From: a virus
Lineage: Duplodnaviria; Caudoviricetes
Direction: 5' to 3' (one strand)
Virus record (IMG/VR): IMGVR_UViG_3300010373_000052
Coordinates: 1-58,198 of that record
Length of the DNA: 58,198 nucleotides
Positions within the stretch are counted from its first letter, which is position 1, and every line of letters starts with the position of its first letter. The notes under the pieces were generated by a model. That model was given only the letters and a program-made list of their open reading frames with translations. It was not told where the DNA came from and made no database searches. Of this stretch, positions 1 through 37,237 are shown piece by piece. Position numbers and translations under genes: made by a program.

Positions 1-573
1 CCACGCCGCATCTCTCACCGCATCTCTCACCGCAGCCCCCGCCGCATCCCCCGCCGCAGCCCCCGCCGCAGCCCCCGCCGCAGCCCTCACCGCATCCCAC
101 GCCGCATCTCTCACCGCATCCCACGCCGCAGCCCCCTGCTTGCGAGCTTCTTCCAGTGTGGGCATCGCAGATTTGGCCGTCTGCCTTGACACGACTGGCG
201 GCAACGACCGCACCGCTTGGGCGACCTCGGTGCAACCGGCCAACTCCAGCCAGGCTGGCGTCTGAACTCGGATGAACCAATCCGCCGCCATCCACGCGCG
301 CTTGCTCTCCTGCGCCTTCGTTCCCTTCGTGCCGATCAACTTGGGCAGGTAGGGCTTAAGCCGTTGCCTGCCTTCATCGTCCAGCGCGTCGTTCCACGAC
401 CGCATGAACGCCGAGATGACCGGACTGGCACATTTGGGACGGTCACTCCACGGCTCACCGGCCAGGTAGCTGACGACTTCCATCGCGCACGCCCCTTCCT
501 CCAGGTTGGCGTGCCCTCCGCTCTTTAGCAGAATGTCGTCCAGGATAGACAGGCGGTCCTCGATCAATGTCAT
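1..573 (-). CDS. Phage protein with C-terminal A-A-W-D/A-A-G-A repeats (truncated by window start)
   Basis: Own translation (absent from ORF track): ATG 573 after GAAGGGG RBS; MTLIEDRLSILDDILLKSGGHANLEEGACAMEVVSYLAGEPWSDRPKCASPVISAFMRSWND...AAWDAVRDAAWDAVRAAAGAAAG; frame open to base 1. Confidence 0.8.
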   Translation of the reverse strand, partial: MTLIEDRLSILDDILLKSGGHANLEEGACAMEVVSYLAGEPWSDRPKCASPVISAFMRSWNDALDDEGRQRLKPYLPKLIGTKGTKAQESKRAWMAADWFIRVQTPAWLELAGCTEVAQAVRSLPPVVSRQTAKSAMPTLEEARKQGAAAWDAVRDAAWDAVRAAAGAAAGAAAGDAAGAAVRDAVRDAAW

Positions 574-5156: not shown

Positions 5157-5969
5157 TCAAAACGGCTCCTCACCGGTAGGTTGCGACGACGCGGACTCGG
5201 TGACTGCGTCCGGCAGCTTCCAGCCGCCCTCGATGGCTTCGGTAAGCCACGTGCCGGATTTCCAGTCGAGTTCCTCAGCGTTGACGCCAAACAGGTGGAG
5301 TGCGGCGAGGTTGGCGTCCACGTCCCTCCCGCGGGAGATGGCCCACAGCCGCCGCACCTTGCCCTCCGAGAGCTTCTCTAGCGACTCGTCGTAGCGGGGC
5401 TGTGGCTTTCCCTTGCTGGGTTCCTTCAGCTCCCCCGTCTCGGGATCGTGCGCCGGTTGGGGGGCACGTCGCACGGTTCCCTGGGCTCGGCGGTTCGTCG
5501 TGGAGCCGTTGCCGTTGGCTGGCAGTACGTTCGTCGCCTTGTCCTCGGAGTGCCCGGATTCCAACCCGTCCTTGGCCCACAGATCCAGCGCCACACCGAA
5601 GCGCATGGCAGCGTTGCGGAGCGCGTCTCCGATCCGCTCCTTCATCGAAGGCCCGTCGCCTACGCCGAGGCGCGTTACCCCGCAGACCGTCAGCCGAATC
5701 CACAGGTTGCCCTCGCGGTCGAGGGCGGGCAGGCCCGATGCGTCAAGGGACAGGGGCTCCCACGTCCACTCCGGGTCGACGCTCAACAGCCGGTCGGTCA
5801 CGGCAGCGTGGCCGACGAAGTCCAAGTGCGCGGCGGGTAGGCCGTGGTAGCCACTGCAGACGTCGCACTTGCCCTTGGGCGAGTCCTTTTTGTACGGCTT
5901 GGGCAAGATCCCGACGGTGCCGGGCGGGAACGGCTCCCGCAGCTTTTCGAGTCGTTGATCCTCGGCCAT
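5157..5969 (-). CDS. Sak/Rad52-like single-strand annealing protein
   Basis: LREPFP..., LDFVGHAAVTDRL..VDPEWTW, IGDALRNAAMRFGVALDLW; acidic EEPF tail; adjacent to exonuclease. Confidence 0.82.
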   Translation of the reverse strand: MAEDQRLEKLREPFPPGTVGILPKPYKKDSPKGKCDVCSGYHGLPAAHLDFVGHAAVTDRLLSVDPEWTWEPLSLDASGLPALDREGNLWIRLTVCGVTRLGVGDGPSMKERIGDALRNAAMRFGVALDLWAKDGLESGHSEDKATNVLPANGNGSTTNRRAQGTVRRAPQPAHDPETGELKEPSKGKPQPRYDESLEKLSEGKVRRLWAISRGRDVDANLAALHLFGVNAEELDWKSGTWLTEAIEGGWKLPDAVTESASSQPTGEEPF

Positions 5970-7834
5970 CACGCACCTCCCACAGACACCACGTCGGGCA
6001 CCTCGGGCAGACCCTTGCGCCACGTGACCAGATCGACCATCTTCAAGAAGACGTCGTGGTTGGCCTTGTCCAGCGGCAACTCGTAGAACGTGTAGCCCTC
6101 GTCGCCTCGCAGGTGGATGACACCCAGGCGGTCGGGTGGGGACCACGGCCCGGTGCCCACCTCTTGCACCTTCACCTTGCCGTCCTCCTCCCACGCCTCG
6201 TATTCGACGGTCTCGGTGGCGAAGGCGAGGGCGGTGAGCTGGGGCAGCCACGAATCGACGTAGATGCCTTTGCCGTCGTCCTGCTGGTTGGTGCTGTTGT
6301 GGGTCGGCACCATCTGTTCGCCACACAGATAGGTGTGGTCGGGGCTGTCAACGGCGATGCATTGGGTGGGCACCGACACGGTTGGCTCTACCGAGACGAT
6401 GAGGCGGCGACGGCCGTGCGCGGTGCCCTCAACCCGAACGGCGTCCCGCTTGTGCGCCACGTGGCGGAATGGGTTGTCTCGGTGGGGGGTGAATGCCACC
6501 CGATAGACGGTCACCTCCAGTCCGAACCCATGCTTGGTGAACGTGGACTGAGACGCATGCCAACCAAGCGAGACGACCAGTTCGTATACGTCCGCCGCAA
6601 GCTGCTTGTCGACAACGTCAAAGACGGCCTGGCGTCGTTTCTTGTTCCAGGTTCCGTCGGTATCCATGAGCCCCTGCAGCAACGCAAGGCGCTGGGATTG
6701 GCTTCCGCGCAAGTACGACCTCGGGACATGCTTATCAATGCTTGTGTCTCCGGTGGCTCCCATCTGACCGCAAGCTCGTAGATAAGGACGGAAGCCCAAC
6801 ACGTTCCACGACTCACCAGGATTCTCTGAGAGCGTGAAACCAGCATCACGGAACGCCTGCGCAACCGGAGCCTTGAGTCCGGGCAGGCTCACCCGCGTGT
6901 CACAACGGGTTCCATCGCCCAGCCATGCGCCGAGGAGGTACGGGTCTAACGGCAGGTCGGCGTCGGGCAAATCAAGCGGGGCTGGATTGACAACGCCGTA
7001 ACGACGTCGGGCACCGCGGCCCACCCTGGCGTTAATGTCGTCAGCAAGCTCGATTGTGGTCTTGACGCTGCGCGTCCCAGTAGCCATATGCGTGACCAGC
7101 CAGCGGTGGTCGTAATCACAAACCACCGATGACCCATCGTCAAACGTGACTCGGTAACAGTCCTTCTCATGGATGGCCGACTTCCCTACGACGCGAACAG
7201 GAGCGCCATCGTGACCGAAGACGCTGTCGCCGACAGCGATCGCGCCCATCGTGGTCCAACCCGCTGGGGTTGGAATCGGGGTGTCGAGAGATAGACCCTT
7301 CCAGTCGAGCAACCAGTCGTCCCCGACGATGCGGGCTCGCAGGTCGCCCGTGCCGATGTACTTGCCGGGGTAGCGCACCACCGTCTCGGTGGAGATGACC
7401 TCGGGCATGTGGTCGGCCCACCATGCCTCGATGCCGAGCACGTAGCCCAGGGCCGTCTCGGTCAGCTCGTCGGCGTTGCGGTCCTTCCACGTGCGGGCGT
7501 TGTGGTCGTGGGCGATGGTCCACTCGATGAGCGCCTGGATGTCGATGTCCTCACCTGCCGCGAACGCTTCGGGCACCTTGTGGCACAGCGTCCCCATGGC
7601 CGCCCGGCCGTTCCAGATCCCGGCGTGGTGCTTGCGGAGCTTGTCGATGGCGTCCGCAACGTCCATGTGCAGCCACTCGTCGTGGTGGAGCACGGCGTAC
7701 ATGGCCGTCTCGCGTGCCGCGCCCCACGACAGGCCGGGCTTGGACAGGATGTCGATGATCGTCGTGACGCTCGGCTCCGTGCCCCGAATCTTCGAGTACG
7801 GCCGAGCCGGGACCAGCGTCCTCTCTCTCAGCAT
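5969..7834 (-). CDS. PD-(D/E)XK (RecE/Cas4-like) exonuclease interrupted by an intein
   Basis: PSVTTI, GTLCH, YIGTGDL, LLDWK|intein|STN..QL..; ATG 7834 with RBS. Confidence 0.85.
   Translation of the reverse strand: MLRERTLVPARPYSKIRGTEPSVTTIIDILSKPGLSWGAARETAMYAVLHHDEWLHMDVADAIDKLRKHHAGIWNGRAAMGTLCHKVPEAFAAGEDIDIQALIEWTIAHDHNARTWKDRNADELTETALGYVLGIEAWWADHMPEVISTETVVRYPGKYIGTGDLRARIVGDDWLLDWKGLSLDTPIPTPAGWTTMGAIAVGDSVFGHDGAPVRVVGKSAIHEKDCYRVTFDDGSSVVCDYDHRWLVTHMATGTRSVKTTIELADDINARVGRGARRRYGVVNPAPLDLPDADLPLDPYLLGAWLGDGTRCDTRVSLPGLKAPVAQAFRDAGFTLSENPGESWNVLGFRPYLRACGQMGATGDTSIDKHVPRSYLRGSQSQRLALLQGLMDTDGTWNKKRRQAVFDVVDKQLAADVYELVVSLGWHASQSTFTKHGFGLEVTVYRVAFTPHRDNPFRHVAHKRDAVRVEGTAHGRRRLIVSVEPTVSVPTQCIAVDSPDHTYLCGEQMVPTHNSTNQQDDGKGIYVDSWLPQLTALAFATETVEYEAWEEDGKVKVQEVGTGPWSPPDRLGVIHLRGDEGYTFYELPLDKANHDVFLKMVDLVTWRKGLPEVPDVVSVGGA
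6296..7297 (-). mobile_element. 334-aa intein with LAGLIDADG homing endonuclease, class 3-type
   Basis: Begins GLSLDTPIPTP, block B CDYDHRW, LAGLIDADG motifs YLLGAWLGDG and LLQGLMDTDG, block F TQCIAV, ends VPTHN followed by Ser. Confidence 0.92.
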
Positions 7835-8032
7835 TCCCCTATCTCCCTCTCTGGTGTTGCTTCGGTCGGCAGGTCGGCCAACGTGGCACACGTGCGCACG
7901 CCGTGCGTGTGGACGTGGCCGAACCAAACCCGCTTAATCTCCTCGCCGCAGTTGGCGCAGAGCGAAACCGCCCCAGTCCCGCCTGCACGTGGCGAGGGGG
8001 AGACAGCCGTTGTGGACGGGACTGGGGCAGAA

Positions 8033-8389
8033 CTAGTCATTGTGCAGCGCGCCGTTCTCAATCTCGCTCCACGTGCGGGGCCGCACGATGAGTCGCATGG
8101 CTTCGGCGTCGGCCGGGTTGTCGTGGATGTAGCTGTGGTGCCACCAGCAGAGATGCAAGAGGTTGCTCAGGTCGTTCGTCCCCCCAGCGCTGCGGAGCGT
8201 GATGTGGTGGACGTGATGCGCCCAGTGGTCGCACGTGGGGTACTCGCACCGGCCCTCGCTGCGCTGGTGGATGAGCGGGCGCATGGCGTCGAGCTCGGCG
8301 TTGAACTCCGCGCCCCGGTTGCCCACGGCGTGTAGCGGGGTCTTCCGCTTCAGTGGGGTGTACCGCTTGAGGATGCCGCCGCGCTTCAC
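8033..8389 (-). CDS. HNH endonuclease
   Basis: RCEYPTC..HVHHITLRSAGGTNDLSNLLHLCWWHH. Confidence 0.85.
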   Translation of the reverse strand: MKRGGILKRYTPLKRKTPLHAVGNRGAEFNAELDAMRPLIHQRSEGRCEYPTCDHWAHHVHHITLRSAGGTNDLSNLLHLCWWHHSYIHDNPADAEAMRLIVRPRTWSEIENGALHND

Positions 8390-8697
8390 GACGTGACCCC
8401 CCACGCGTCGGCCAACGTGTCGTGCTGGGCGTAGGCGCTCTCGATCGAATCGGTTTCGGCGAACCAGCCGCACTCGAAGCACGTCGCGCGGTACTTGTCG
8501 TCCGGCGCGGGGTCAATCGTCAGTTCGTGGTCACTCACTGAGCCTCCCCTTGGCTGCCATTTCGCGGAGGTGGTCGTAGATCTGGTAACGGCGCTCGCCG
8601 CGGTGCCAGTGGCGGAACTTCCATCCGCAACTGCACTCCGCCAACCGCTCGTCTTTTTGCGGGTCCCCGTCCTGAATGCGGTGGTACTCGACGGCGC

Positions 8698-9066
8698 TCA
8701 CGGCAGGTCCCCACTCGCGATGGCGGCGAACATGCGGTCAGGCAGTGGGTCGTCCCACCACACGTCGACGAACTCGACGCCGCTACCGGGATCAGAAACC
8801 CCGGTGTCTCGACCGGCGTGGTAACGGTTGACCCGCACCTCCTCGTCGCCGACGATGAAGCGGACGCGGACGGAGCGAATGAGCTGGGCCGCTTGGTCCA
8901 GCCTGTACTCGTGAGCTGCTCGGCGGTCGTCCCACTCGAACCGGTCGTGTAGTGCGTGGTCGGGGTCGGTAGCTTCCTCTACCAAGTCGACCGGGCGCAG
9001 TTCGCCCCGACGCTTGTAGAGCTCCTCCAGCACCGCCTCTACAACGGACGTGGCGTCAGTCGTCAT
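8698..9066 (-). CDS. Phage protein coupled to the Cas7-like gene (putative accessory of the repeat system)
   Basis: ATGA overlap with 9063..9539; LHDRFEWDDRRAAHEYRLDQAAQLIRSVRV motif. Confidence 0.75.
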   Translation of the reverse strand: MTTDATSVVEAVLEELYKRRGELRPVDLVEEATDPDHALHDRFEWDDRRAAHEYRLDQAAQLIRSVRVRFIVGDEEVRVNRYHAGRDTGVSDPGSGVEFVDVWWDDPLPDRMFAAIASGDLP

Positions 9067-9539
9067 CCCGCCACCTCGACAATCTCCAACTCGTCGTTCA
9101 CTTGGAAGGTGCCGAACGTTCCACCCTTCTCCGGGCGCCACTCGCCGACGCCATCGCCCGTGCCTCCGGCATCGACCAACGCCAACACTGAGGACTTGTC
9201 GTAGAAACGGGCACCGCCCACTACGGCCGACTTGAACGCCGCCGCAGGGAATCCCACACTGCCGTCGGCCATGCGGTAGATGGACTCTTGAAAGTCGCCT
9301 TCTGGATCGCGGATCGTCTTCTGCTTCTTCCGACCCTGCTGGGCGTCCAGCATGATCTGTTTCGCCTTGGCGCTCCAAGCGTGAACGATTAACGGCGCCG
9401 TGCCAATCACTGGGACCAGCACGGTCCGTCGCTCGATGCGTTGGATCGAGATCGCAGCCGATCCAGTTTCAGCCGGTGTCGCGACCTTGGTCCCCTTCGG
9501 AACCTTCCCGTTCGTCTTGACCTCAGTTGCCGTAGTCAC
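9063..9539 (-). CDS. Cas7/RAMP-like RNA-binding protein (158 aa, possibly internally deleted)
   Basis: GAGGGAGGAG RBS, GTG 9539; VPVIGTAPLIVH (RAMP beta1), GFPAAAFKSA (RAMP IP-x-S-x-KG-like), Gly-rich loop GDGVGEWRPEKGGTFGTFQV. Confidence 0.75.
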   Translation of the reverse strand: MTTATEVKTNGKVPKGTKVATPAETGSAAISIQRIERRTVLVPVIGTAPLIVHAWSAKAKQIMLDAQQGRKKQKTIRDPEGDFQESIYRMADGSVGFPAAAFKSAVVGGARFYDKSSVLALVDAGGTGDGVGEWRPEKGGTFGTFQVNDELEIVEVAG

Positions 9540-9572
9540 CTCGAAAACTCCTCCCTCTTGGTTGTTGGCTGT

Positions 9573-9839
9573 AGGCCATGCCCGGCCCTGCCCAGCGGAG
9601 CCCTGACAGGCCCAGCCACGCATAGGCCATGCCAGCCGCGCCCTGCCATGCCCTGCCCAGCGAGGCCTAGCCGTGCCATGCCTGCCGTGCCGTGCCACGC
9701 CATGCCCAGAGCCGCCGGGCCATGCCACGCCGGCCTAGCCACGCCTGGCCGAGCCCCGCCTTGCCGAGCCGAGCCGGGCCAAGCCTGGCAAGCCATGCCG
9801 CGCCGAGTCGCGCCCTGCCGGGCCCTGCCACGCCCCGAC
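9573..9839 (-). ncRNA. GGC-NN pentamer array (about 50 pentamers in five units): candidate guide-RNA array
   Basis: Minus strand reads GGCGT GGCAG GGCCC GGCAG GGCGC ...; constant GGC, variable NN, register broken by 4-nt units every 9-11 pentamers; fills the intergenic gap upstream of the RAMP-like gene. Confidence 0.85.
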
Positions 9840-9851
9840 TGGTAGAAAACT

Positions 9852-10194
9852 TCACGACTCAACCGCCTCGAACCGGTCGCACAGACAATCCAGGCACGCC
9901 TCCCAGGCCCACGTCTCCACGTGCGCCTCGCTCGAATGTCCGCAGACACATGAGCCACCAGCCGACGGGGACTGCACGTCCAGCCGACGCACCGTGGGTT
10001 CACTCACCACGACTGGCGTCCTTCCATGAGCAGCGCGCTCAGTGCCGCGCGGCGCAGGTTGTCCTTCGTCGTCTCGTCCACGTCGGGGAAGGCTGCGAGG
10101 TGGCGGTCGTAGTGCTGCTCGTGCCACGGCAACGAGTACGGCAGCGGGTAGCCCTCGGTGGGCAGGCACGGCATCCCGCAGGGGCACGTGTAGC

Positions 10195-10198
<4 letters not shown>
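9852..10198 (-). CDS. Two small Cys/His-rich hypothetical proteins (about 9852-10007 and 10004-10198)
   Basis: GTGA-coupled short ORFs with CVCGH..H..CLDCLC and CPCG..H motifs. Confidence 0.5.
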
Positions 10199-10847
<649 letters not shown>

Positions 10848-10851
<4 letters not shown>

Positions 10852-11027
10852 AGCCAGCCCCTGACACTCCAGCGCCGAATGGTCTCGGCTGAGATGTCCT
10901 CGCCGTAGGTGGCCGTGAGGTGACGGGCCACGTCGTGCCATGACCGGCCGTGGTCCCGCCACCAGCCGACATCGTTGGCCAGGTCCCCACGGGTGAGCGA
11001 GTGCCACAGGGCGAAGGTGGTTTTCAT
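10848..11027 (-). CDS. 59-aa putative HTH protein
   Basis: Own translation: ...GRSWHDVARHLTATYGEDISAETIRRW; coupled at both ends. Confidence 0.6.
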
Positions 11028-11212
11028 GAGGGCTCTCCGTGGATGTGCTTTTCGAGTCGGATGACAGACACGCGCCAGCGGCGACCGAGTCGGAAGGCGC
11101 CCGGCAGTTCGCCACGCGCCGCGAGCTCGTACGCCGTCTTGCTCGCGATTCCCAGCCGACGTGCGGCCTGGGGAATGGTTATGAGGTCGGGGGGGAGCTG
11201 GGCGAGGGTCAC
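11024..11212 (-). CDS. xis: Excisionase-like HTH_17 protein
   Basis: LITIPQAARRLGIASKTAYELAARGELPGAFRLGRRWRV; directly after cro. Confidence 0.8.
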   Translation of the reverse strand: MTLAQLPPDLITIPQAARRLGIASKTAYELAARGELPGAFRLGRRWRVSVIRLEKHIHGEPS

Positions 11213-11466
11213 GACGACGCTGCTTGCTCGTCCGGCATGTCCGGGGTGATGTCGGGAAACCCCGCTAGGTCGGCCACCGTCATCTGGAATGCCCCCGCGA
11301 GGAGAACGAGGTGTTCGTAACTGGGGGTCTGAAGGCCCTTCTCCCACCGCGAAACGGTGGACTGAGGCTTGCCGATTTGTGCGGCTAAACGTTCCTGCGT
11401 GCCGTATATCTGGCGCCGCCTCTTCTGGATCCGTTTGGCCAGGGCAGTCTTGATGTCTTCGACCAC
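11209..11466 (-). CDS. cro: Cro-like XRE HTH regulator
   Basis: TQERLAAQIGKPQSTVSRWEKGLQTPS; divergent from cI. Confidence 0.85.
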   Translation of the reverse strand: MVEDIKTALAKRIQKRRRQIYGTQERLAAQIGKPQSTVSRWEKGLQTPSYEHLVLLAGAFQMTVADLAGFPDITPDMPDEQAASS

Positions 11467-11591
11467 GACATAAGCATATGCGTATGCGTCATAGATTGCA
11501 AGCCCCATCCACCAGGGGCTTTGGTGAAATCACCAAGGGGTAGTTACGTCTATACGGCAAACGCATATGCGCATCGCGTAGGATCCGGGGT
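11467..11591. promoter_or_regulatory. Lysis-lysogeny switch: divergent promoters and operators
   Basis: Leftward TTGCAA(11501-11496)-17 bp-TATGCT ending 6 nt before the cro GTG; rightward TAGGAT (11579-84) 7 nt before the cI GTG; GCATATGC palindromes at 11474 and 11563; TTGGTGA-AA-TCACCAA at 11521-11536. Confidence 0.8.
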
Positions 11592-11954
11592 GTGGGATTT
11601 GGAGCAGCAATCAGGGGAAGTAGGAAGGCCGCCGGATTAACTCAGACCGAGCTGAAGGATCGCCTTCGAGAGCGGGACCCCAAGACGACCATCGACCAGT
11701 CGGTGATTTCGCGTTGGGAGAACGAATCCCCAGGGCGGGCACCCGATCTAGACGACCTTGCGGCACTCGAGGACGCTCTGGATCTGCCGAGAGGCGGCCT
11801 GCTGGTGCGCTCTGGGTTTGTGGCTGAGGTTGTATCCGTCGAGCTCGCAGTCATGACCGACCAGCGGCTAGACGATCAGGGGCGCCAACTTCTCATTAAC
11901 GCCTATCGGGGCCTTGTTCAGCCGAAGCCGGGTCGCCGACGGGGAGCCCGATGA
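11592..11954 (+). CDS. cI: CI-like XRE immunity repressor
   Basis: GLTQTEL...IDQSVISRWENE..PDLDDLAALEDALDL; position between cro and integrase. Confidence 0.85.
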   Translation: MGFGAAIRGSRKAAGLTQTELKDRLRERDPKTTIDQSVISRWENESPGRAPDLDDLAALEDALDLPRGGLLVRSGFVAEVVSVELAVMTDQRLDDQGRQLLINAYRGLVQPKPGRRRGAR

Positions 11955-12918: not shown

Positions 12919-13135
12919 TGTCCTACCATCGGGCCTAGTAACAGACGGGTTTCCCTTCGTCTGCGCGCCCCTACGTTCTACGTTAGTGCAGCGTGCGACG
13001 CTTAAAGGTACTTGGCTGCCTCTCACTCCACGCCGGGGCAATATTTATGAGTCCCCTGCTCTGACCACTGAGCTACGGCCCCTGACTGGGATATCTGTCA
13101 TGGGTTGCTCGGCAGGGCCTAGCAATGTCCTACCA
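12919..13135. other. attP: attP with arm-type sites and a core in a tRNA(CAT) fragment
   Basis: Direct repeats TGTCCTACCA (12919, 13126) and GGGCCTAG (12931, ~13115) flank the tRNA fragment; immediately upstream of int. Confidence 0.75.
13045..13082 (-). pseudogene. 5' half of a tRNA with CAT anticodon (Ile2/Met-like)
   Basis: GGGGCCG TA GCTC AGTGGTCA GAGC A GGGGA CTCATAA, after which tRNA structure stops; no T-arm downstream. Confidence 0.85.
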
Positions 13136-13154
13136 AGTAGGTTACCATTGTGCC

Positions 13155-14279
13155 ATGACCGGGACCAAGAGGGAGCGAAGTCCGGGCCACTGGCAGCTCC
13201 GGGTCTACGTGGGAAAGGACAGCCGGGGGCGGCCGATCCAGGTGTCCCGCTCCTTCTCTGGTGGCGTGCGGGCGGCGGGCAAGGCATTGGCGAACCTGGT
13301 GGCCGAGGTGGACGCCCAGAAGCTCCACCCCTCGACGGTGACCGTGGGACAGCTCCTCGACCGATGGCTGGAGCACTCGGAGCCACGACGCTCGGTCACC
13401 ACGATGATCGGCTACCGGCGCAAGATCGAACACGCTCTCCGGCCAGCGTTCGGCTCGATACGTCTCGGACGGCTCCGAGCCGACGTTATCGACGCCCGCT
13501 ACCGGGAGTGGCTGGATAGCGGGCTCTCCCCCACCACCGTGCGTCAGTACCACGCCATCCTGTCTGCCGCCCTGAACCAGGCCGTCAAGTGGGGCTGGAT
13601 AGCTGAGAACGTCGCCGTGCGGACGAGCCCGCCCAGCGCTCGCCGGGTCCAGTTGGCCGTACCGACTCCGAAGGAGATCCAAGCCATCATCGCCAGGGCT
13701 GAGAGGCGAGACGAAACCCTCGCCACCGCGGTCGCCCTGGCCGCCCTGACTGGAGCGCGACGTGGAGAAATCTGCGCCCTTCGGTGGACCGACGTAACCC
13801 TTGGCGTCCTCACTATCTCCCGGTCAATATCGGTCGTCGGAAAGAAGGTCCACGAAGGCGGCACCAAGACCCACCAGGCGCGGGTCATCGCCTTGGATGA
13901 GACGGGCCAGGAAGTTCTCAGCCGACGCCGGCTTGAAGCACTCGACTTGGCGGGACACGTGGGCACCGACCTCGCCGCCGACGCGTTCGTCCTATCGCCA
14001 CGTGGCGATGGTCGCGCTCCGATGCTCCCTGACACCCTCAGTCACCGGTTCGCGGCATTGATGAAAGACATGGGACTGCCGTACCATTTCCATGACCTCC
14101 GCCACTTCGCCGCCACGCAGATGGTCGCCGCGGGGACGGACCTGCGTACCGTGGCTGGACGGCTGGGCCACGCCGACCCGTCGATGACGCTCCGGGTCTA
14201 CGCCCACGCCCTGCCCGAACGGGACCGCGAGGCCGCCGAGTTGTTGGGGCGGGTGCTGATGCCTCCACCCCAGGGTTGA
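13155..14279 (+). CDS. int: Tyrosine integrase
   Basis: TGARRGEICAL, TKT, HFHDLRH, RLGHA, LRVYAH catalytic set; N-terminal arm-binding domain. Confidence 0.95.
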   Translation: MTGTKRERSPGHWQLRVYVGKDSRGRPIQVSRSFSGGVRAAGKALANLVAEVDAQKLHPSTVTVGQLLDRWLEHSEPRRSVTTMIGYRRKIEHALRPAFGSIRLGRLRADVIDARYREWLDSGLSPTTVRQYHAILSAALNQAVKWGWIAENVAVRTSPPSARRVQLAVPTPKEIQAIIARAERRDETLATAVALAALTGARRGEICALRWTDVTLGVLTISRSISVVGKKVHEGGTKTHQARVIALDETGQEVLSRRRLEALDLAGHVGTDLAADAFVLSPRGDGRAPMLPDTLSHRFAALMKDMGLPYHFHDLRHFAATQMVAAGTDLRTVAGRLGHADPSMTLRVYAHALPERDREAAELLGRVLMPPPQG

Positions 14280-15473: not shown

Positions 15474-17461
15474 TGGCTGACGGCCTCCATGATGAGCGAG
15501 CGGGTCGGGGCCGCGAAGGTGGTCGCACGAGCCTCGGCCACGAAGACGAGCGAACGGGTCGGTGCCGCGAAGATGACGGTGGGCGTCGTGGTCCCAGCGA
15601 CGACACCCGCAGCGGAGCCGGTGAGGGTCGCCGTGAACGAAGCGGTCGCGGGGACGCTGACCACGCCAACGGCACTCGCCGTGAGCGAGAAGGTCTCCGC
15701 GGCCGTGCCGACGCCCCCGGTCGTCCCGCTGGCCGTTGCCGTAAGGGTGACGACCTGTGACGCTTCGGCCGCGAGAGTTCCCGTGGCTGTCGAGGCGAGG
15801 GTGATGGAGTCCGATGCCGCGCCCGCGACCTTGACCGCTCCGACAGCGGCAGAGGTGAGGCTGATGGAATCCGACGCTGCCCCGGCAAGAGTCCCTGCGG
15901 CTGTCGCGGTGAGCGAGATGGATTGCGCCGCGGTTGCGGGAACGGTGACGACACCCACCGCCGTGGCAGTGAGCGAGAAGCCTTCGGACGCCGTCGACGG
16001 AACACCGACCGCACCCGTGGCCGCGCTGGTCAGCGAGGCCGAGAACGAACCCGACCCCCCGGTGCCACCAGTCCCCACGGCGGTCGCCGTGAGCGAGAAG
16101 GTCTCCGCGGCCGTGCCGTGGACCGTGACCGCCCCAGCGGCGGTAGAGGTCAGGCTGATGGACTGTGAGGCGCTAGCCGGAACGTGAACGGTTCCCGCGG
16201 CCGTCGCGGTCAGGCTGATGGACTGCGAGCCTGTCCCGGCCAGGGTTCCCGCGGCTGTCGCGGTGAGCGTGATGGCCTGCGAGGCAGTGGCTGGAACGTG
16301 AACGGTTCCCGCGGCTGTCCCGGTGAGGCTGTCTGAGCTCGACGCGGTTCCGGCCAGAGTCCCCGCGGCCGTTGCCGTGAGGCTGATGGTCTGACTGGCT
16401 GTAGCGGGGACGCCGACCTTACCCGTCGCGGACGCCGTGAGGGTATCCGTGCTGGCCGCGGTGGCCGGAACCGAGACCGTACCGACGGCTATCCCAGTGA
16501 GGGAGAACGACTCCGAACCGGTGGCTGCAAGGGTTCCCGCCGCCGACGAGGAAAGGGTGATGGTCTGGCTGGCTGTGCCAGCGACCCCCACCGCTCCAAC
16601 GGCTGCCGAGGTGAGGGTGATCGAGTCCGACGCGGTGCCCGCGACCGTGACCGTACCGGTGGCCGTGGCAGTGAGCGAGAAGGAATCGCTAGCGGTCCCG
16701 GCGAGAGTTCCGGCGGCTGTCGACGTGAGGGTGATCGACTGCGAGGCCGTGCCGGGCGTACCCGTAGACGCGGCCAGCACCTCGTAGGCGATCCACGCCC
16801 ACTGGGCCGACGAACTGCCGCCCTTGAGGTTGAGCGTCGCGGCCGTGCCGCCGGTGGTTGGCGTGAACGCGGACGTCGACGTGCCCAGCCACACCTCGCC
16901 GGCGAGGCTGTTGGTCGAATCGGCGTCCAAGATGTAGCAGGAGGTCCCGGCCGTCGGGGTGCCGGTGTTGGCGCCGTCGCTGCCGCTCATGACCAGCGCC
17001 GAACCGCTGGCGTTGGGGGTGAGGGCGTGCGAGACGGTCTGGCCGCCGTAGTTCCCCGAGGCGGTCGCGCCGATCGGGTTGGAGGTGTCCGCGTTCGACC
17101 AGACGTCGACCGAGACGTCGACCACCTGCACGTAGCCCGCGCCCGCGTGGTAGGTCACGGTGGCCGTCATGTTGGTCTGGGACGAAGCGGTGTAGGCCCA
17201 CCACGCCGTCACCGCCGACTCGTAGGTGGTGTTGGCCACCTGCAGAAACTTCGTCCACGTCAGGTGCGTGCCGAGCGAGTCGGTGATAGTGGCCGGGGTC
17301 GCGTTCCACCCGTTCGGGCCGTAGTCGTCCTGGGCGTAGCCAGTGACGATGATGACCGAGCCAGCCCCTGGCGAGAACGTCTTGGAAGTCTCCGAGACTG
17401 TATTGGTCCCGGTCCAACTCCCATTGTTTATCGCCGGCGCGGTCGCCCGCGAGAGGCTCAC
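15470..17461 (-). CDS. Tail fibre/whisker protein with ~19-21 aa Thr/Ala/Ser repeats
   Basis: Many copies of GTASQSISLTATAAGT(L/V)A after a beta-sandwich-like N-domain. Confidence 0.75.
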   Translation of the reverse strand: MSLSRATAPAINNGSWTGTNTVSETSKTFSPGAGSVIIVTGYAQDDYGPNGWNATPATITDSLGTHLTWTKFLQVANTTYESAVTAWWAYTASSQTNMTATVTYHAGAGYVQVVDVSVDVWSNADTSNPIGATASGNYGGQTVSHALTPNASGSALVMSGSDGANTGTPTAGTSCYILDADSTNSLAGEVWLGTSTSAFTPTTGGTAATLNLKGGSSSAQWAWIAYEVLAASTGTPGTASQSITLTSTAAGTLAGTASDSFSLTATATGTVTVAGTASDSITLTSAAVGAVGVAGTASQTITLSSSAAGTLAATGSESFSLTGIAVGTVSVPATAASTDTLTASATGKVGVPATASQTISLTATAAGTLAGTASSSDSLTGTAAGTVHVPATASQAITLTATAAGTLAGTGSQSISLTATAAGTVHVPASASQSISLTSTAAGAVTVHGTAAETFSLTATAVGTGGTGGSGSFSASLTSAATGAVGVPSTASEGFSLTATAVGVVTVPATAAQSISLTATAAGTLAGAASDSISLTSAAVGAVKVAGAASDSITLASTATGTLAAEASQVVTLTATASGTTGGVGTAAETFSLTASAVGVVSVPATASFTATLTGSAAGVVAGTTTPTVIFAAPTRSLVFVAEARATTFAAPTRSLIMEAVSQ

Positions 17462-36627: not shown

Positions 36628-37237
36628 GTCAGACTCCAAGCATGAATGTTCGATGGATGGATGCGGCCAGCCGGCGGTTGCTCGGGGTTGGTGTCGCCGG
36701 CATTACATGAGGTGGTGGAAGCACGGCGACCCCCGATTCGTGACCGCTCGCACTGACTACAGCCGCCGCACTATTGAGCAGCGATTTTGGGCAAAGGTTG
36801 ATAGGTGCCATCTCGCCCCATGCTGGACGTGGATGGGATTCCGCACACCCGACGGCTACGGGCGCTTTCGCGTGGATGGAGCGTCTATCAGCGCCCATCG
36901 TTGGTCGTATGAGCACTTCATCGGTCCCATTCCAAGCGGTTTCACCATTGACCACCTCTGCCGAAACCGTGCCTGTGTCAACCCCGATCACTTGGAATCC
37001 GTGACGCAGGGTGAGAACACTCGACGTGGAGACAGGGTCGGCATGTCCGCGGGTAATCGGAACAAGACCCACTGCAAGCGCGGTCACCCTTATGACGAGG
37101 CGAATACCTACTTCTCTGCTGATGGGAGCAGGAAGTGTAGGGCTTGTGGAAGAGAAGCAGCCGCGCGGCGCTGGCGAGCGGTCAACCCTGACGCGCCGGT
37201 TCGTGGTTCCTACGGCAGGCGACCACGTCGGACCTAG
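36626..37237 (+). CDS. HNH homing endonuclease, antisense insertion
   Basis: ARGWCRRHY, RFWAKV, CWTW.G..DGYG, AHRWSY, IDHLCRNRACVNPDHL, KTHCKRGH. Confidence 0.92.
   Translation: MSDSKHECSMDGCGQPAVARGWCRRHYMRWWKHGDPRFVTARTDYSRRTIEQRFWAKVDRCHLAPCWTWMGFRTPDGYGRFRVDGASISAHRWSYEHFIGPIPSGFTIDHLCRNRACVNPDHLESVTQGENTRRGDRVGMSAGNRNKTHCKRGHPYDEANTYFSADGSRKCRACGREAAARRWRAVNPDAPVRGSYGRRPRRT

What the first reader, a model, noticed from the sequence alone, without database searches (positions are those of the whole stretch)
9790..9836. First array unit decodes to an XRE repressor helix K-I-A-E-A-L-G-L-T-P
+ strand dinucleotides AA AT GC GA GC CT GG CT AC CC give (K/N)(I/M)A(D/E)ALGLTP, matching the helix pattern (KIAxALGV/L) typical of XRE/Cro-CI HTH domains. 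This is a second, independent unit in the same polarity and phase that points to a lysogeny-control gene. Own cI (ALEDALDLPR) matches only 4 of 10 dinucleotides and own cro does not match. Inference: the system silences a rival prophage's repressor or Cro.
Basis: partly seen in the sequence, partly recalled or inferred. Interest (0 to 1): 0.88.

Follow-up and report, generated by a model that had tools for sequence, protein, structure and literature searches.

The report
VIPR guide RNA array, first guide
This stretch is the first guide of a phage-encoded VIPR array, a recently described CRISPR-like system that reads two of every three bases of a rival's gene; its best database match is a small nuclease-like gene of another phage rather than a repressor, and the locus's own guide-binding protein is broken.

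Summary
Window 9575-9836 carries about 52 GCCNN units (GGCNN on the transcribed minus strand), and 9790-9836 gives exactly the ten dinucleotides listed.

The locus fits VIPR:
- It has a staggered array of five guides of about 10 NN each.
- The adjacent gene's family has a Cas7/Csm3-like fold.
- A profile of that family finds PDB "SUSP1 Vipr protein" at E 6e-8.
- A co-occurring small gene lies next to it.

The XRE reading is only partly supported. The regex gave 16 exact hits (13 distinct genes), all in an open sense frame. Only 3 of 13 are XRE genes, and none of those is clearly in a phage.

The single viral hit lies at the C-terminus of a small HNH-like gene upstream of the terminase, in a 69% GC phage contig. 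It extends to 22 of 22 bases once the staggered-array rule adds an 11th dinucleotide. A cI-like XRE gene on a 1.4-kb metagenome contig matches 21 of 22.

The window's vipr has an in-frame deletion of about 65 aa. It removes the thumb, including the arginine that is essential in SUSP1 Vipr. The system is therefore probably inactive on its own.

Verdict: new member of a known kind.

The parts
9573..9839 (-). Whole VIPR guide (vrRNA) array: about 52 GGC-NN units, arranged as five guide-length register runs plus a 2-unit fragment
   Evidence: 35 of 46 GCC spacings are 5 nt. Register runs are separated by 4-nt junctions, as in the arrays of L003, L002, Gordonia phage Ecliptus and Mycobacterium phage Gorge.
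9785..9839 (-). Guide A, the finding. NN on the minus strand: GG GT AG CC AG GC TC GC AT TT AG. Plus-strand reading: L[KN][IM]A[DE]ALGLTP. Two in-register triplets are degenerate (GAC, GCC), and the leading triplet is GTC.
   Evidence: It matches 22 of 22 bases at L125 10765-10796.
9731..9785 (-). Guide B, 11 NN (TT CC TC TC AA GG TC CA GT TA CG)
   Evidence: 0 exact hits in viral contigs for its first 10 NN.
9682..9731 (-). Guide CD, 10 NN, with one degenerate in-register triplet (CTC)
   Evidence: 0 exact hits for 9 NN.
9633..9682 (-). Guide E, 10 NN, with one degenerate triplet (CGC)
   Evidence: 0 exact hits for 9 NN.
9573..9622 (-). Guide G, 10 NN. The plus-strand reading [RS][IM]RL[HQ][DE]L[RS][HQ]T is a motif I recall as the conserved box of tyrosine integrases.
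   Evidence: 17 of 20 in-frame at ...RIRLYDLRHKFAS... in a 396-aa ORF of L007, not checked against Pfam. 11 of 20 on the window's own integrase. 0 exact hits in viral contigs.
9063..9539 (-). vipr gene, 158 aa, with an in-frame internal deletion of about 65 aa (junction near 9180-9191). The deletion removes five beta-strands, including the thumb.
   Evidence: phrog_4652. Alignment with 17 and 78 homologs. tblastn of P0004 gives two pieces, residues 4-97 and 163-203. AF2 pLDDT is 52 against 90 for the full-length homolog. The family profile hits SUSP1 Vipr at E 6.2e-8.
8698..9066 (-). Companion gene, 122 aa, candidate vap; its start overlaps the vipr stop
   Evidence: phrog_15946. Homologs lie next to vipr in 23 of the 45 array-seeded loci that carry vipr. 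Function unknown.

Best explanation
Window 9790-9836 is the specificity-bearing part of the first guide (9839-9785, minus strand) in a five-guide 'staggered' VIPR array. The array sits in the early leftward operon of a temperate soil phage, directly upstream of a vipr gene and a small companion gene.

Mechanism, as established for other VIPR systems: Vipr protomers bind one GGY-NN repeat each and hide the GGY. The NN bases are left to pair with double-stranded DNA, skipping every third base. A guide therefore reads codon positions 1 and 2 and blocks transcription of a rival element's gene.

Guide A specifies L-[K/N]-[I/M]-A-[D/E]-A-L-G-L-T-P. Its best database target is the 3' end of a small HNH-like gene. 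That gene lies two genes upstream of a lysin-like gene and the large terminase gene in an unrelated 69% GC phage contig (G001). An XRE repressor target is the main alternative.

The window's own vipr has lost its thumb, so this copy most likely cannot load or read the guides by itself.

Shown here: the array, its segmentation, the family link to Vipr, the deletion, and the matches. Inferred: transcription and processing of the array, which match is the natural target, and the present activity of the system.

My odds: VIPR guide array 0.9; G001-type gene is the natural target about 0.45; XRE gene about 0.25; locus autonomously active about 0.15. The confidence figure given for this explanation (0.8) is for the core claim: a VIPR guide with a thumb-deleted vipr beside it.
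For: Array and neighbours:
- GGC-NN periodicity, and the only such array in the window.
- The same kind of array lies beside homologs of the neighbouring gene in L002 and L003, with different NN, and in Gordonia phage Ecliptus and Mycobacterium phage Gorge.
- Of 120 loci fetched by the array pattern alone, 45 encode this protein family and 24 the companion gene.

Protein family:
- The full-length homolog P0004 models at pLDDT 90.
- Its best PDB matches are Csm3/Cas7-type RAMP subunits: 6xn3_F at E 1.2e-6, TM about 0.5-0.56, 63 hits at E <= 1e-3.
- A profile of 79 family members finds PDB 36pp_D 'SUSP1 Vipr protein' as top hit, E 6.2e-8.

Architecture:
- Register runs of 9-15 units are joined by 4-nt junctions, here and in four relatives.
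- This fits the legend of fig. S18 of 10.64898/2026.04.26.720920, 'staggered arrays ... 1 nt overlapping positions' (legend only, figure not seen).

Target rule:
- Guide A matches L125/G001 at 22 of 22 bases, in frame, with the skipped bases at wobble positions.
- The match stops exactly at the guide's two ends.
- The 11th NN was predicted from the overlap rule before it was checked.
- Guide G decodes in the same polarity to a motif I recall as a tyrosine-integrase hallmark. A recombinase is the demonstrated target class in 10.64898/2026.10.15.759431.

Self-avoidance: no guide reaches 80% on the window. Own cI and cro score 12 of 20; own integrase scores 11 of 20.

Deletion:
- P0004 residues 98-162 are absent.
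- SUSP1 R138, the thumb residue whose alanine substitution abolishes silencing (10.64898/2026.04.26.720927, section 5), aligns to the second R of the family's near-invariant DLRYR, inside the deleted segment.
- The window protein models poorly: pLDDT 52, pTM 0.23.
- A Logan contig of run X1 spans 8700-10100 with 0 differences.
Against: Strength of the G001 match:
- The single viral hit is not strong statistically. The peptide is common enough that the 10-NN regex also hits 5 places in genome contigs and 10 in metagenome contigs, in unrelated organisms.
- One of those (L129, Komagataeibacter) also matches 22 of 22, in an ambiguous frame.
- By my rough estimate an 11-NN exact hit somewhere in the viral collection has a chance of a few percent. 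The collection's size in bases was not given, so this is an estimate and not a computation.
- A relative of the G001 gene (L147, 66% aa identity) matches only 17 of 22.
- G001 shares only 3 proteins with the window at 35-44% identity, so a common host is not shown.
- The other four guides have no exact hit in viral contigs, and none reaches 80% on G001.
- The target protein is only weakly HNH-like: Pfam HNH E 0.003, below the cut-off, and no PHROG.

The array itself:
- No RNA data exist for it.
- No promoter-like site was found.
- Seven in-register triplets depart from GGY: GTC, GAC, GCC, CTC, CGC, GTC, CGC.

Run X1 is probably the sample the window was assembled from, so it is not independent support for the deletion.
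Confidence: 0.8

Rival explanations
1. Guide A targets the last helix of the XRE (cI or Cro type) DNA-binding domain of a rival prophage's lysogeny regulator.
For: - The peptide sits inside Pfam HTH_3/HTH_31 matches in three distinct genes, L130, L140 and L141.
- L140 is a 187-aa cI-like protein (PHROG transcriptional repressor/regulator families). A small, divergently oriented HTH-like ORF lies beside it (by eye, not scanned against Pfam). It matches 21 of 22 guide bases in frame.
Against: - XRE genes are 3 of 13 distinct exact hits.
- None is shown to be phage-borne.
- L130 is a Desulfobacteraceae MAG, and L141 is an 836-aa HTH-AAA protein.
- L140's nearest phage relatives are enterobacterial and Haemophilus cI proteins at 28-34% identity, not phages like the window.
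- XRE genes are so abundant that chance matches to their consensus helix are expected in about a terabase of sequence.
- The only hit in the viral collection is not XRE.
Confidence: 0.25
2. A relic. The locus is a decaying VIPR system with a broken vipr and degenerate repeats, and guide A no longer does anything.
For: - The thumb-removing deletion.
- The poor model of the window protein.
- Seven degenerate in-register triplets.
- No second vipr copy in the window.
Against: - The deletion is in frame and the rest of the gene is intact, 68-73% identical to P0004.
- Arrays beside intact vipr genes show similar degeneracy. L002 has 7 and Ecliptus has 4 GGY spacings of 9 or 10 nt; the window has 5.
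- The paper notes 'frequently observed internal degeneracy'.
- Guide A still has a perfect database match, and guide G a clean integrase motif.
Confidence: 0.4
3. Orphan guides. The array is kept because its RNAs are loaded onto Vipr protein supplied by a co-resident or co-infecting relative. This would parallel the vipr-null phages with solo vrRNAs described for SUSP1-like phages.
For: - 346 vipr-null Enterobacteriaceae phages keep solo vrRNAs (10.64898/2026.10.15.759431, section 8).
- Here the guides look usable while the protein does not.
Against: - Nothing here shows a partner phage.
- Cross-use of guides between Viprs is untested in this clade.
- The deletion could simply be recent.
Confidence: 0.2
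4. Not a guide array at all. It could be a slippage-born pentanucleotide repeat, a G-quadruplex tract, or a DNA or RNA site for some other protein, and the peptide-like reading is coincidence.
For: - There is no expression data.
- Rfam has no family for it.
- GG every 5 nt could form two-tetrad quadruplexes (my inference).
Against: - The array is linked to a RAMP-fold gene family in 45 of 120 loci found from the array pattern alone.
- That family has a profile match to SUSP1 Vipr.
- GGY is conserved while NN varies between relatives.
- The register-run architecture is shared.
- Two of the five guides decode in frame to recognisable protein motifs.
Confidence: 0.03

Closest known systems
VIPR systems (Viral Interference Programmable Repeat): Vipr protein plus vrRNAs. 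Sources: bioRxiv 10.64898/2026.04.26.720920 (Results, Discussion, four Methods sections and figure legends read), 10.64898/2026.04.26.720927 (abstract and section 5 read), 10.64898/2026.10.15.759431 (abstract and sections 6 and 8 read).
   Same: - GGY-NN pentanucleotide repeats next to a small RAMP-fold gene and a small accessory gene in a phage.
- Guides of about 10 repeats.
- A target match that skips every third base, with the skip on the wobble position.
- No self-target.
- Guide motifs pointing at a recombinase and at a rival phage gene.
- The family profile hits SUSP1 Vipr at E 6.2e-8.
   Different: - Guides are joined head to tail with 1-nt overlap. No conserved 3' tail or pseudoknot was seen between them; this is the 'staggered' form mentioned only in a figure legend.
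- The vipr here lacks its thumb.
- The host is probably not a proteobacterium.
- The words Mycobacteri, Gordonia and Actino do not occur in the main text of the first paper. Its supplementary tables were closed, so I cannot say whether this clade or its type is already listed.
vipr-null phages with solo (orphan) vrRNAs (10.64898/2026.10.15.759431, section 8)
   Same: Guides are retained while the protein is lost or disabled.
   Different: In those phages a 1,114-bp deletion removes vipr and vap1 entirely and leaves 1-2 guides. Here an in-frame deletion of about 65 aa inside vipr leaves both genes and five guides in place.
Class 1 CRISPR Cas7/Csm3 backbone subunits on crRNA
   Same: RAMP fold (Foldseek E 1e-6 to 1e-4 to Csm3, Cmr4 and type VII Cas7 chains). 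One protomer per fixed-length RNA step, with a thumb that flips bases.
   Different: There are no CRISPR repeats, spacers or cas genes beside it. The step is 5 nt, with 2 read bases rather than 6 nt with 5, and the guide is made of repeats rather than a contiguous spacer.
TRAP (trp RNA-binding attenuation protein) and its GAG/UAG-NN repeats; recalled from memory, not tested here
   Same: A 5-nt RNA periodicity with a constant triplet and a variable 2-nt spacer bound by an oligomeric protein.
   Different: In TRAP the spacer carries no information and the protein fold is unrelated. I considered this before the VIPR papers were found and then dropped it.

Membership tests
VIPR system | Tandem YNNGG (GGY-NN) repeats with a conserved triplet and hypervariable NN, about 9-16 per guide | tested here: met
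   47 GGC triplets, with 35 of 46 spacings at 5 nt. Register runs are of 9-11 units. NN differ completely in the homologous arrays of L002 and L003.
VIPR system | Adjacent gene for a Vipr protein: a RAMP fold with RRM core, glycine-rich loop and thumb, related to SUSP1 Vipr | tested here: met
   Tested at family level. The P0004 model (pLDDT 90) matches Csm3/Cas7 chains. The profile of 79 members hits PDB 36pp_D 'SUSP1 Vipr protein' at E 6.2e-8. The G-loop D177-W178-R179 aligns to the family's invariant E-W-R.
VIPR system | The copy in this window has an intact thumb (SUSP1 R138 equivalent) needed to hold the second G of GGY | tested here: not met
   P0004 residues 98-162, including the near-invariant DLRYR, are missing. 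The AF2 model of the window protein has pLDDT 52 and pTM 0.23.
VIPR system | Accessory vap gene next to vipr | tested here: inconclusive
   The 122-aa gene 8698-9066 co-occurs with vipr in 23 of 45 array-seeded loci. It has no known domain and could not be compared with vap1-6 because the supplements were closed.
VIPR system | Guides match natural targets by the 1-nt-skip rule at 80% NN or more, mostly with the skip at the wobble position | tested here: inconclusive
   Guide A: 22 of 22 in frame on viral contig L125, but the chance level is not negligible. Guide G: 17 of 20 in-frame in a 396-aa ORF of L007 that reads ...RIRLYDLRHKFAS... (integrase-like by eye). Guides B, CD and E: no exact hit in viral contigs. 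Only exact patterns could be scanned on the collections, and other skip lengths were not scanned.
VIPR system | No self-targeting at 80% NN or more | tested here: met
   Best self scores are 14 of 20 (A, B, G), 14 of 18 (CD) and 12 of 18 (E).
VIPR system | Array transcribed and processed into roughly 50-100-nt vrRNAs that co-purify with Vipr | not testable with these tools
   No RNA run is listed as holding the stretch. Orientation is inferred from the operon and from GGY being on the minus strand.
VIPR system | Conserved 3' tail after the repeats (type II architecture) | tested here: not met
   Guides abut one another through 4-nt junctions with no intervening conserved sequence. This is consistent with the 'staggered' architecture named in the legend of fig. 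S18.
   3 of 13 distinct exact-hit genes are XRE (L130, L140, L141). The only viral-collection hit is not XRE. L140 has a cI/cro-like layout, but its context is unknown.
HNH endonuclease (class of the best-matching target gene) | Match to the HNH profile above the curated threshold | tested here: inconclusive
   Pfam HNH E 0.003, 18.0 bits against a cut-off of 21.4; AHH E 0.0044; no PHROG family. An HH...CPSCH...H pattern is seen by eye.

The most novel reading that the evidence does not exclude
The thumb-less vipr is not debris but a weapon or a parasite's tool. One version: this phage keeps five usable guides and borrows intact Vipr from co-resident relatives, an orphan-guide strategy reached by a different route than in SUSP1-like phages. 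The other version: the truncated protein keeps helix 1 and the G-loop but cannot hold GGY, so it caps and poisons rival Vipr filaments as an anti-VIPR factor. Either way, guide A would act against a late-operon, packaging-region gene of a Streptomyces-like phage. That would extend VIPR targets beyond regulators and recombinases.
Probability: 0.15. Interest if true: 0.7.

Novelty: new member of a known kind. Interest (0 to 1): 0.45.

Why it matters
The strange pentanucleotide array is an instance of the VIPR RNA-guided silencing system, which was described only in 2026 preprints. So the finding is real biology and not numerology, but it is no longer categorically new.

Three things are worth passing on.

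1. The same protein family and staggered arrays occur in cultured actinophages. tblastn found the protein in 5 Gordonia and 27 Mycobacterium phage records. Arrays were inspected in Ecliptus and Gorge only. In Gorge the array is annotated as a hypothetical protein. These phages grow on laboratory strains, so VIPR biology in Actinobacteria is directly testable. The main text of the discovery paper does not mention them.

2. This locus is a natural thumb deletion of vipr with its guides retained. It bears on how orphan guides arise.

3. The best target candidate is a small nuclease-like gene in a packaging region, and the XRE reading rests on a peptide that is simply common. Decoding a guide into a familiar motif is therefore not enough to name its target.

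Tried and rejected
Searches that found nothing or could not be run:
- Megablast of 8500-11100 against 'phages': no match.
- Rfam at E <= 1 on five array loci: only a chance miRNA hit.
- Sigma-70 promoter and terminator scan of 8600-11700: 0 promoter-like sites; 3 terminator-like sites against 1.7 expected.
- tblastn of the G001 HNH-like protein against 'phages': no match.

Ideas considered before the literature search and then dropped: TRAP-like RNA binding, rut sites, primase or origin sites, G-quadruplexes, and coding pentapeptide repeats.

Other guides:
- B, G, E and CD have 0 exact hits in viral contigs.
- On G001 guide B reaches 15 of 20 and the others at most 14.
- In about 1.08 Mb of held loci, guide CD reaches 17 of 20 (L104) and 16 of 20 (L027). 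I treat these as near background.

Host assignment failed:
- The window's large terminase is 44-51% identical to phages of mixed hosts.
- G001's is 45-46% identical to Streptomyces phages.

Sequencing runs:
- No RNA holder is listed.
- Run X2 holds only 9310-9508.

Decoding the guides of L002, L003, L004, Ecliptus and Gorge gave no motif that I could recognise.

Supplementary tables and data of the three VIPR preprints were closed. They may already list this clade, its type, or its vap gene.

Full report
**What is there**

The + strand from 9575 to 9836 is a run of GCCNN units. There are 47 GCC triplets, and 35 of their 46 spacings are exactly 5 nt. It is the only such region in the window on either strand.

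The given span, 9790-9836, reads AA-AT-GC-GA-GC-CT-GG-CT-AC-CC between the GCC triplets. One triplet is GTC.

The array fills the gap between two minus-strand genes. One is a 51-aa Cys-rich ORF (9852-10007). The other is a 158-aa ORF (9063-9539, phrog_4652). They belong to a leftward operon that starts beside a divergent pair of XRE genes:
- a cro-like gene at 11209-11508 on the minus strand;
- a cI-like gene at 11592-11954 on the plus strand.

The window is a 58-kb IMG/VR virus record with 65% GC. It also carries a tyrosine integrase at 13125-14279. On the transcribed strand the units read GGC-NN.

**It is a recurrent phage element tied to one gene family**

Homologs of the 158-aa protein in viral contigs L002 and L003 carry the same kind of array directly upstream, in the sense orientation, with unrelated NN.

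In AT-rich contigs the arrays stand out just upstream of ribosome-binding sites.

Of those 120 loci, which were chosen on the array alone:
- 45 encode a homolog of this protein (tblastn with the full-length relative P0004, E <= 1e-4);
- 24 encode a homolog of the next gene, 8698-9066;
- 23 encode both.

Named relatives include 5 Gordonia phage records and 27 Mycobacterium phage records. In Ecliptus the array lies between gp19 and gp20. In Gorge it overlaps the annotated 'gp53'.

**Literature**

A full-text search found bioRxiv 10.64898/2026.04.26.720920. I read its Results, Discussion, four Methods sections and figure legends.

- VIPR systems consist of a small RAMP protein (Vipr), an accessory gene (vap) and vrRNAs.
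- The vrRNAs are made of 9-16 YNNGG repeats.
- The NN pair with double-stranded DNA under a '1-nt skip rule', and the skipped base usually falls on the codon wobble position.
- Natural targets are rival phages and satellites.

Two companion preprints add to this.
- 10.64898/2026.04.26.720927 (abstract and section 5) gives structures. One protomer binds per repeat. The thumb residue R138 and G-loop residues D177 and W178 hold the GGY guanines. R138A abolishes silencing.
- 10.64898/2026.10.15.759431 (abstract, sections 6 and 8) gives biology. A satellite recombinase is the target, and vipr-null phages keep solo vrRNAs.

**Membership**

- The full-length homolog P0004 (68-73% identical to the window protein over the retained parts) models at pLDDT 90 and pTM 0.85.
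- Its best PDB matches are Csm3/Cas7-type subunits: 6xn3_F at E 1.2e-6, TM about 0.5-0.56, and 63 hits at E <= 1e-3.
- A profile of 79 family members finds PDB 36pp_D, 'SUSP1 Vipr protein', as top hit at E 6.2e-8.
- In that alignment SUSP1 D177-W178-R179 falls on the family's invariant E-W-R, and R138 falls on the second R of the near-invariant DLRYR.

The array is cut into register runs of 9-11 units by 4-nt junctions. L003, L002, Ecliptus and Gorge show the same pattern. It fits the 'staggered arrays ... 1 nt overlapping positions' of the fig. S18 legend. I saw the legend only, not the figure.

This gives five guides (A, B, CD, E, G) and a 2-unit fragment.

**The vipr here is broken**

All 17 aligned homologs, and 78 in the larger alignment, carry about 65 more residues between ...ARFYDKS and SVLAL.... 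tblastn of P0004 on the window gives two pieces, residues 4-97 and 163-203, in one frame.

- The lost part holds five beta-strands of the model and the DLRYR motif.
- The window protein itself models poorly: pLDDT 52, pTM 0.23.
- There is no second copy in the window.
- A Logan contig of run X1 (9,686 nt, depth 32.6) spans 8700-10100 without a difference. X1 may be the source sample, so this is not independent support.

| Collection | Exact hits |
|---|---|
| viral contigs | 1 |
| genome contigs | 5 |
| metagenome contigs | 10 |

Two of the metagenome hits are the same records as genome hits, and two carry one identical gene. That leaves 13 distinct genes.

Every hit lies in an open sense frame 0, so the frame is not random. 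For L129 the opposite strand is equally open and no family matches, so its frame is ambiguous.

Gene classes:
- XRE: 3 (L130, L140, L141).
- One FlpD-ArsR HTH family: 4. L126 and L136 were confirmed by Pfam; L138 and L142 by their near-identical sequence.
- CAAX protease: 1.
- Radical-SAM enzyme: 1.
- YgbB/IspF: 1.
- A DUF4118-like protein: 1.
- L129 (no family): 1.
- The viral hit: 1.

That same commonness means a match does not by itself identify a target.

**The viral hit**

L125 10768-10796 encodes ...QQGLKIAEALGLTPAPTL*, the C-terminus of a 103-aa protein with a weak HNH signature (Pfam E 0.003, below the cut-off; no PHROG).

In the 42.5-kb, 69% GC contig G001 the gene is followed by:
- a LuxR/GerE-type regulator;
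- a transglycosylase/endolysin-like protein;
- a 129-aa ORF;
- the large terminase.

Applying the overlap rule adds an 11th NN to guide A (plus strand CT). The codon before AAG in L125 is CTC, which gives 22 of 22. The flanking positions on both sides mismatch.

Caveats:
- L129 also gives 22 of 22.
- A 66%-identical relative of the gene gives 17 of 22.
- G001 has no vipr or array in the part held.
- G001 shares only three proteins with the window, at 35-44% identity.
- None of the other guides reaches 80% on it.

L140, a cI-like XRE protein with a small, divergently oriented HTH-like ORF beside it, gives 21 of 22. It sits on a 1.4-kb contig, and its closest phage relatives are enterobacterial cI proteins at about 30% identity.

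I therefore rank the G001-type gene first and an XRE gene second. Neither is proven.

**Support for the rule from a second guide**

Read in the same polarity, guide G gives [RS][IM]RL[HQ][DE]L[RS][HQ]T, which I recall as the conserved box of tyrosine integrases.
- It matches 17 of 20 in-frame in a 396-aa ORF of L007 that reads ...RIRLYDLRHKFAS..., not checked against Pfam.
- It matches only 11 of 20 on the window's own integrase, which spells Arg as CGC where the guide needs AGN.
- It has no exact hit in viral contigs.

No guide reaches 80% on the window itself.

**Conclusion**

The finding is real and its logic is sound, but it belongs to a system published in 2026. The naming of an XRE repressor as target is not borne out by the one phage hit, and the local Vipr is probably dead.

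Still open:
- the natural target and the host;
- whether the guides are expressed;
- whether they serve a foreign Vipr;
- whether this actinophage-linked clade and its staggered architecture are already catalogued in supplements I could not open.

Noticed in passing
L135 2098-2342 (Mycobacterium phage Gorge NC_051664.1, about 36768-37012): A 47-unit GGC-NN array overlaps the annotated 'gp53 hypothetical protein' and the start of gp54. The annotated 405-aa gp54 covers both the vipr-like and the vap-like reading regions. The annotation probably misreads a guide array and two genes (or a fusion).
   Followed up: partly
window 10195-10851 (-): A 218-aa Imm5-like protein (Pfam PF21805, E 5.7e-14). 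Its C-terminal third is a tract of ANARYAA-type repeats and a run of 13 Ala, encoded by the GGC-rich tandem repeat at 10252-10441.
   Followed up: no
window 5969-7927 (-): A 652-aa ORF with a LAGLIDADG-like domain (Pfam E 1.5e-4). By eye it has an intein-like insert ending ...VPTHNS. It is 44% identical to a G001 protein.
   Followed up: no
L003 2415-2445; L004 2440-2470; L134 2425-2450: A conserved stem-loop (CCCGGTGCTGAGAACACCGGG type) lies just upstream of the vipr ribosome-binding site in three relatives, whether the array is upstream or downstream of vipr. The window has no such hairpin between the array and vipr.
   Followed up: no
window 1-136: A period-12/24 tandem repeat (CGCCGCATCCCC, 11 copies, 83% matches) lies at the very start of the record. 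It is cut by the contig end.
   Followed up: no
window 16137-16393: A tandem repeat of period 60/114 (2-3 copies, 73-78% matches). It is probably inside a structural gene.
   Followed up: no
L005-L124 (IMG/VR contigs): 75 of the 120 array-bearing loci gave no tblastn hit to this Vipr family at E <= 1e-4. Many carry several arrays 600-750 bp apart, each just upstream of a small gene (for example L011, L017, L032, L084, L118). These may be other VIPR types or loci cut short.
   Followed up: no
window 8033-8482 (-): An HNH endonuclease gene (PHROG phrog_740, E 4.5e-13) lies three small ORFs downstream of the vipr and companion-gene pair. No homolog was found in the other array loci, so it is probably not part of the system.
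   Followed up: partly
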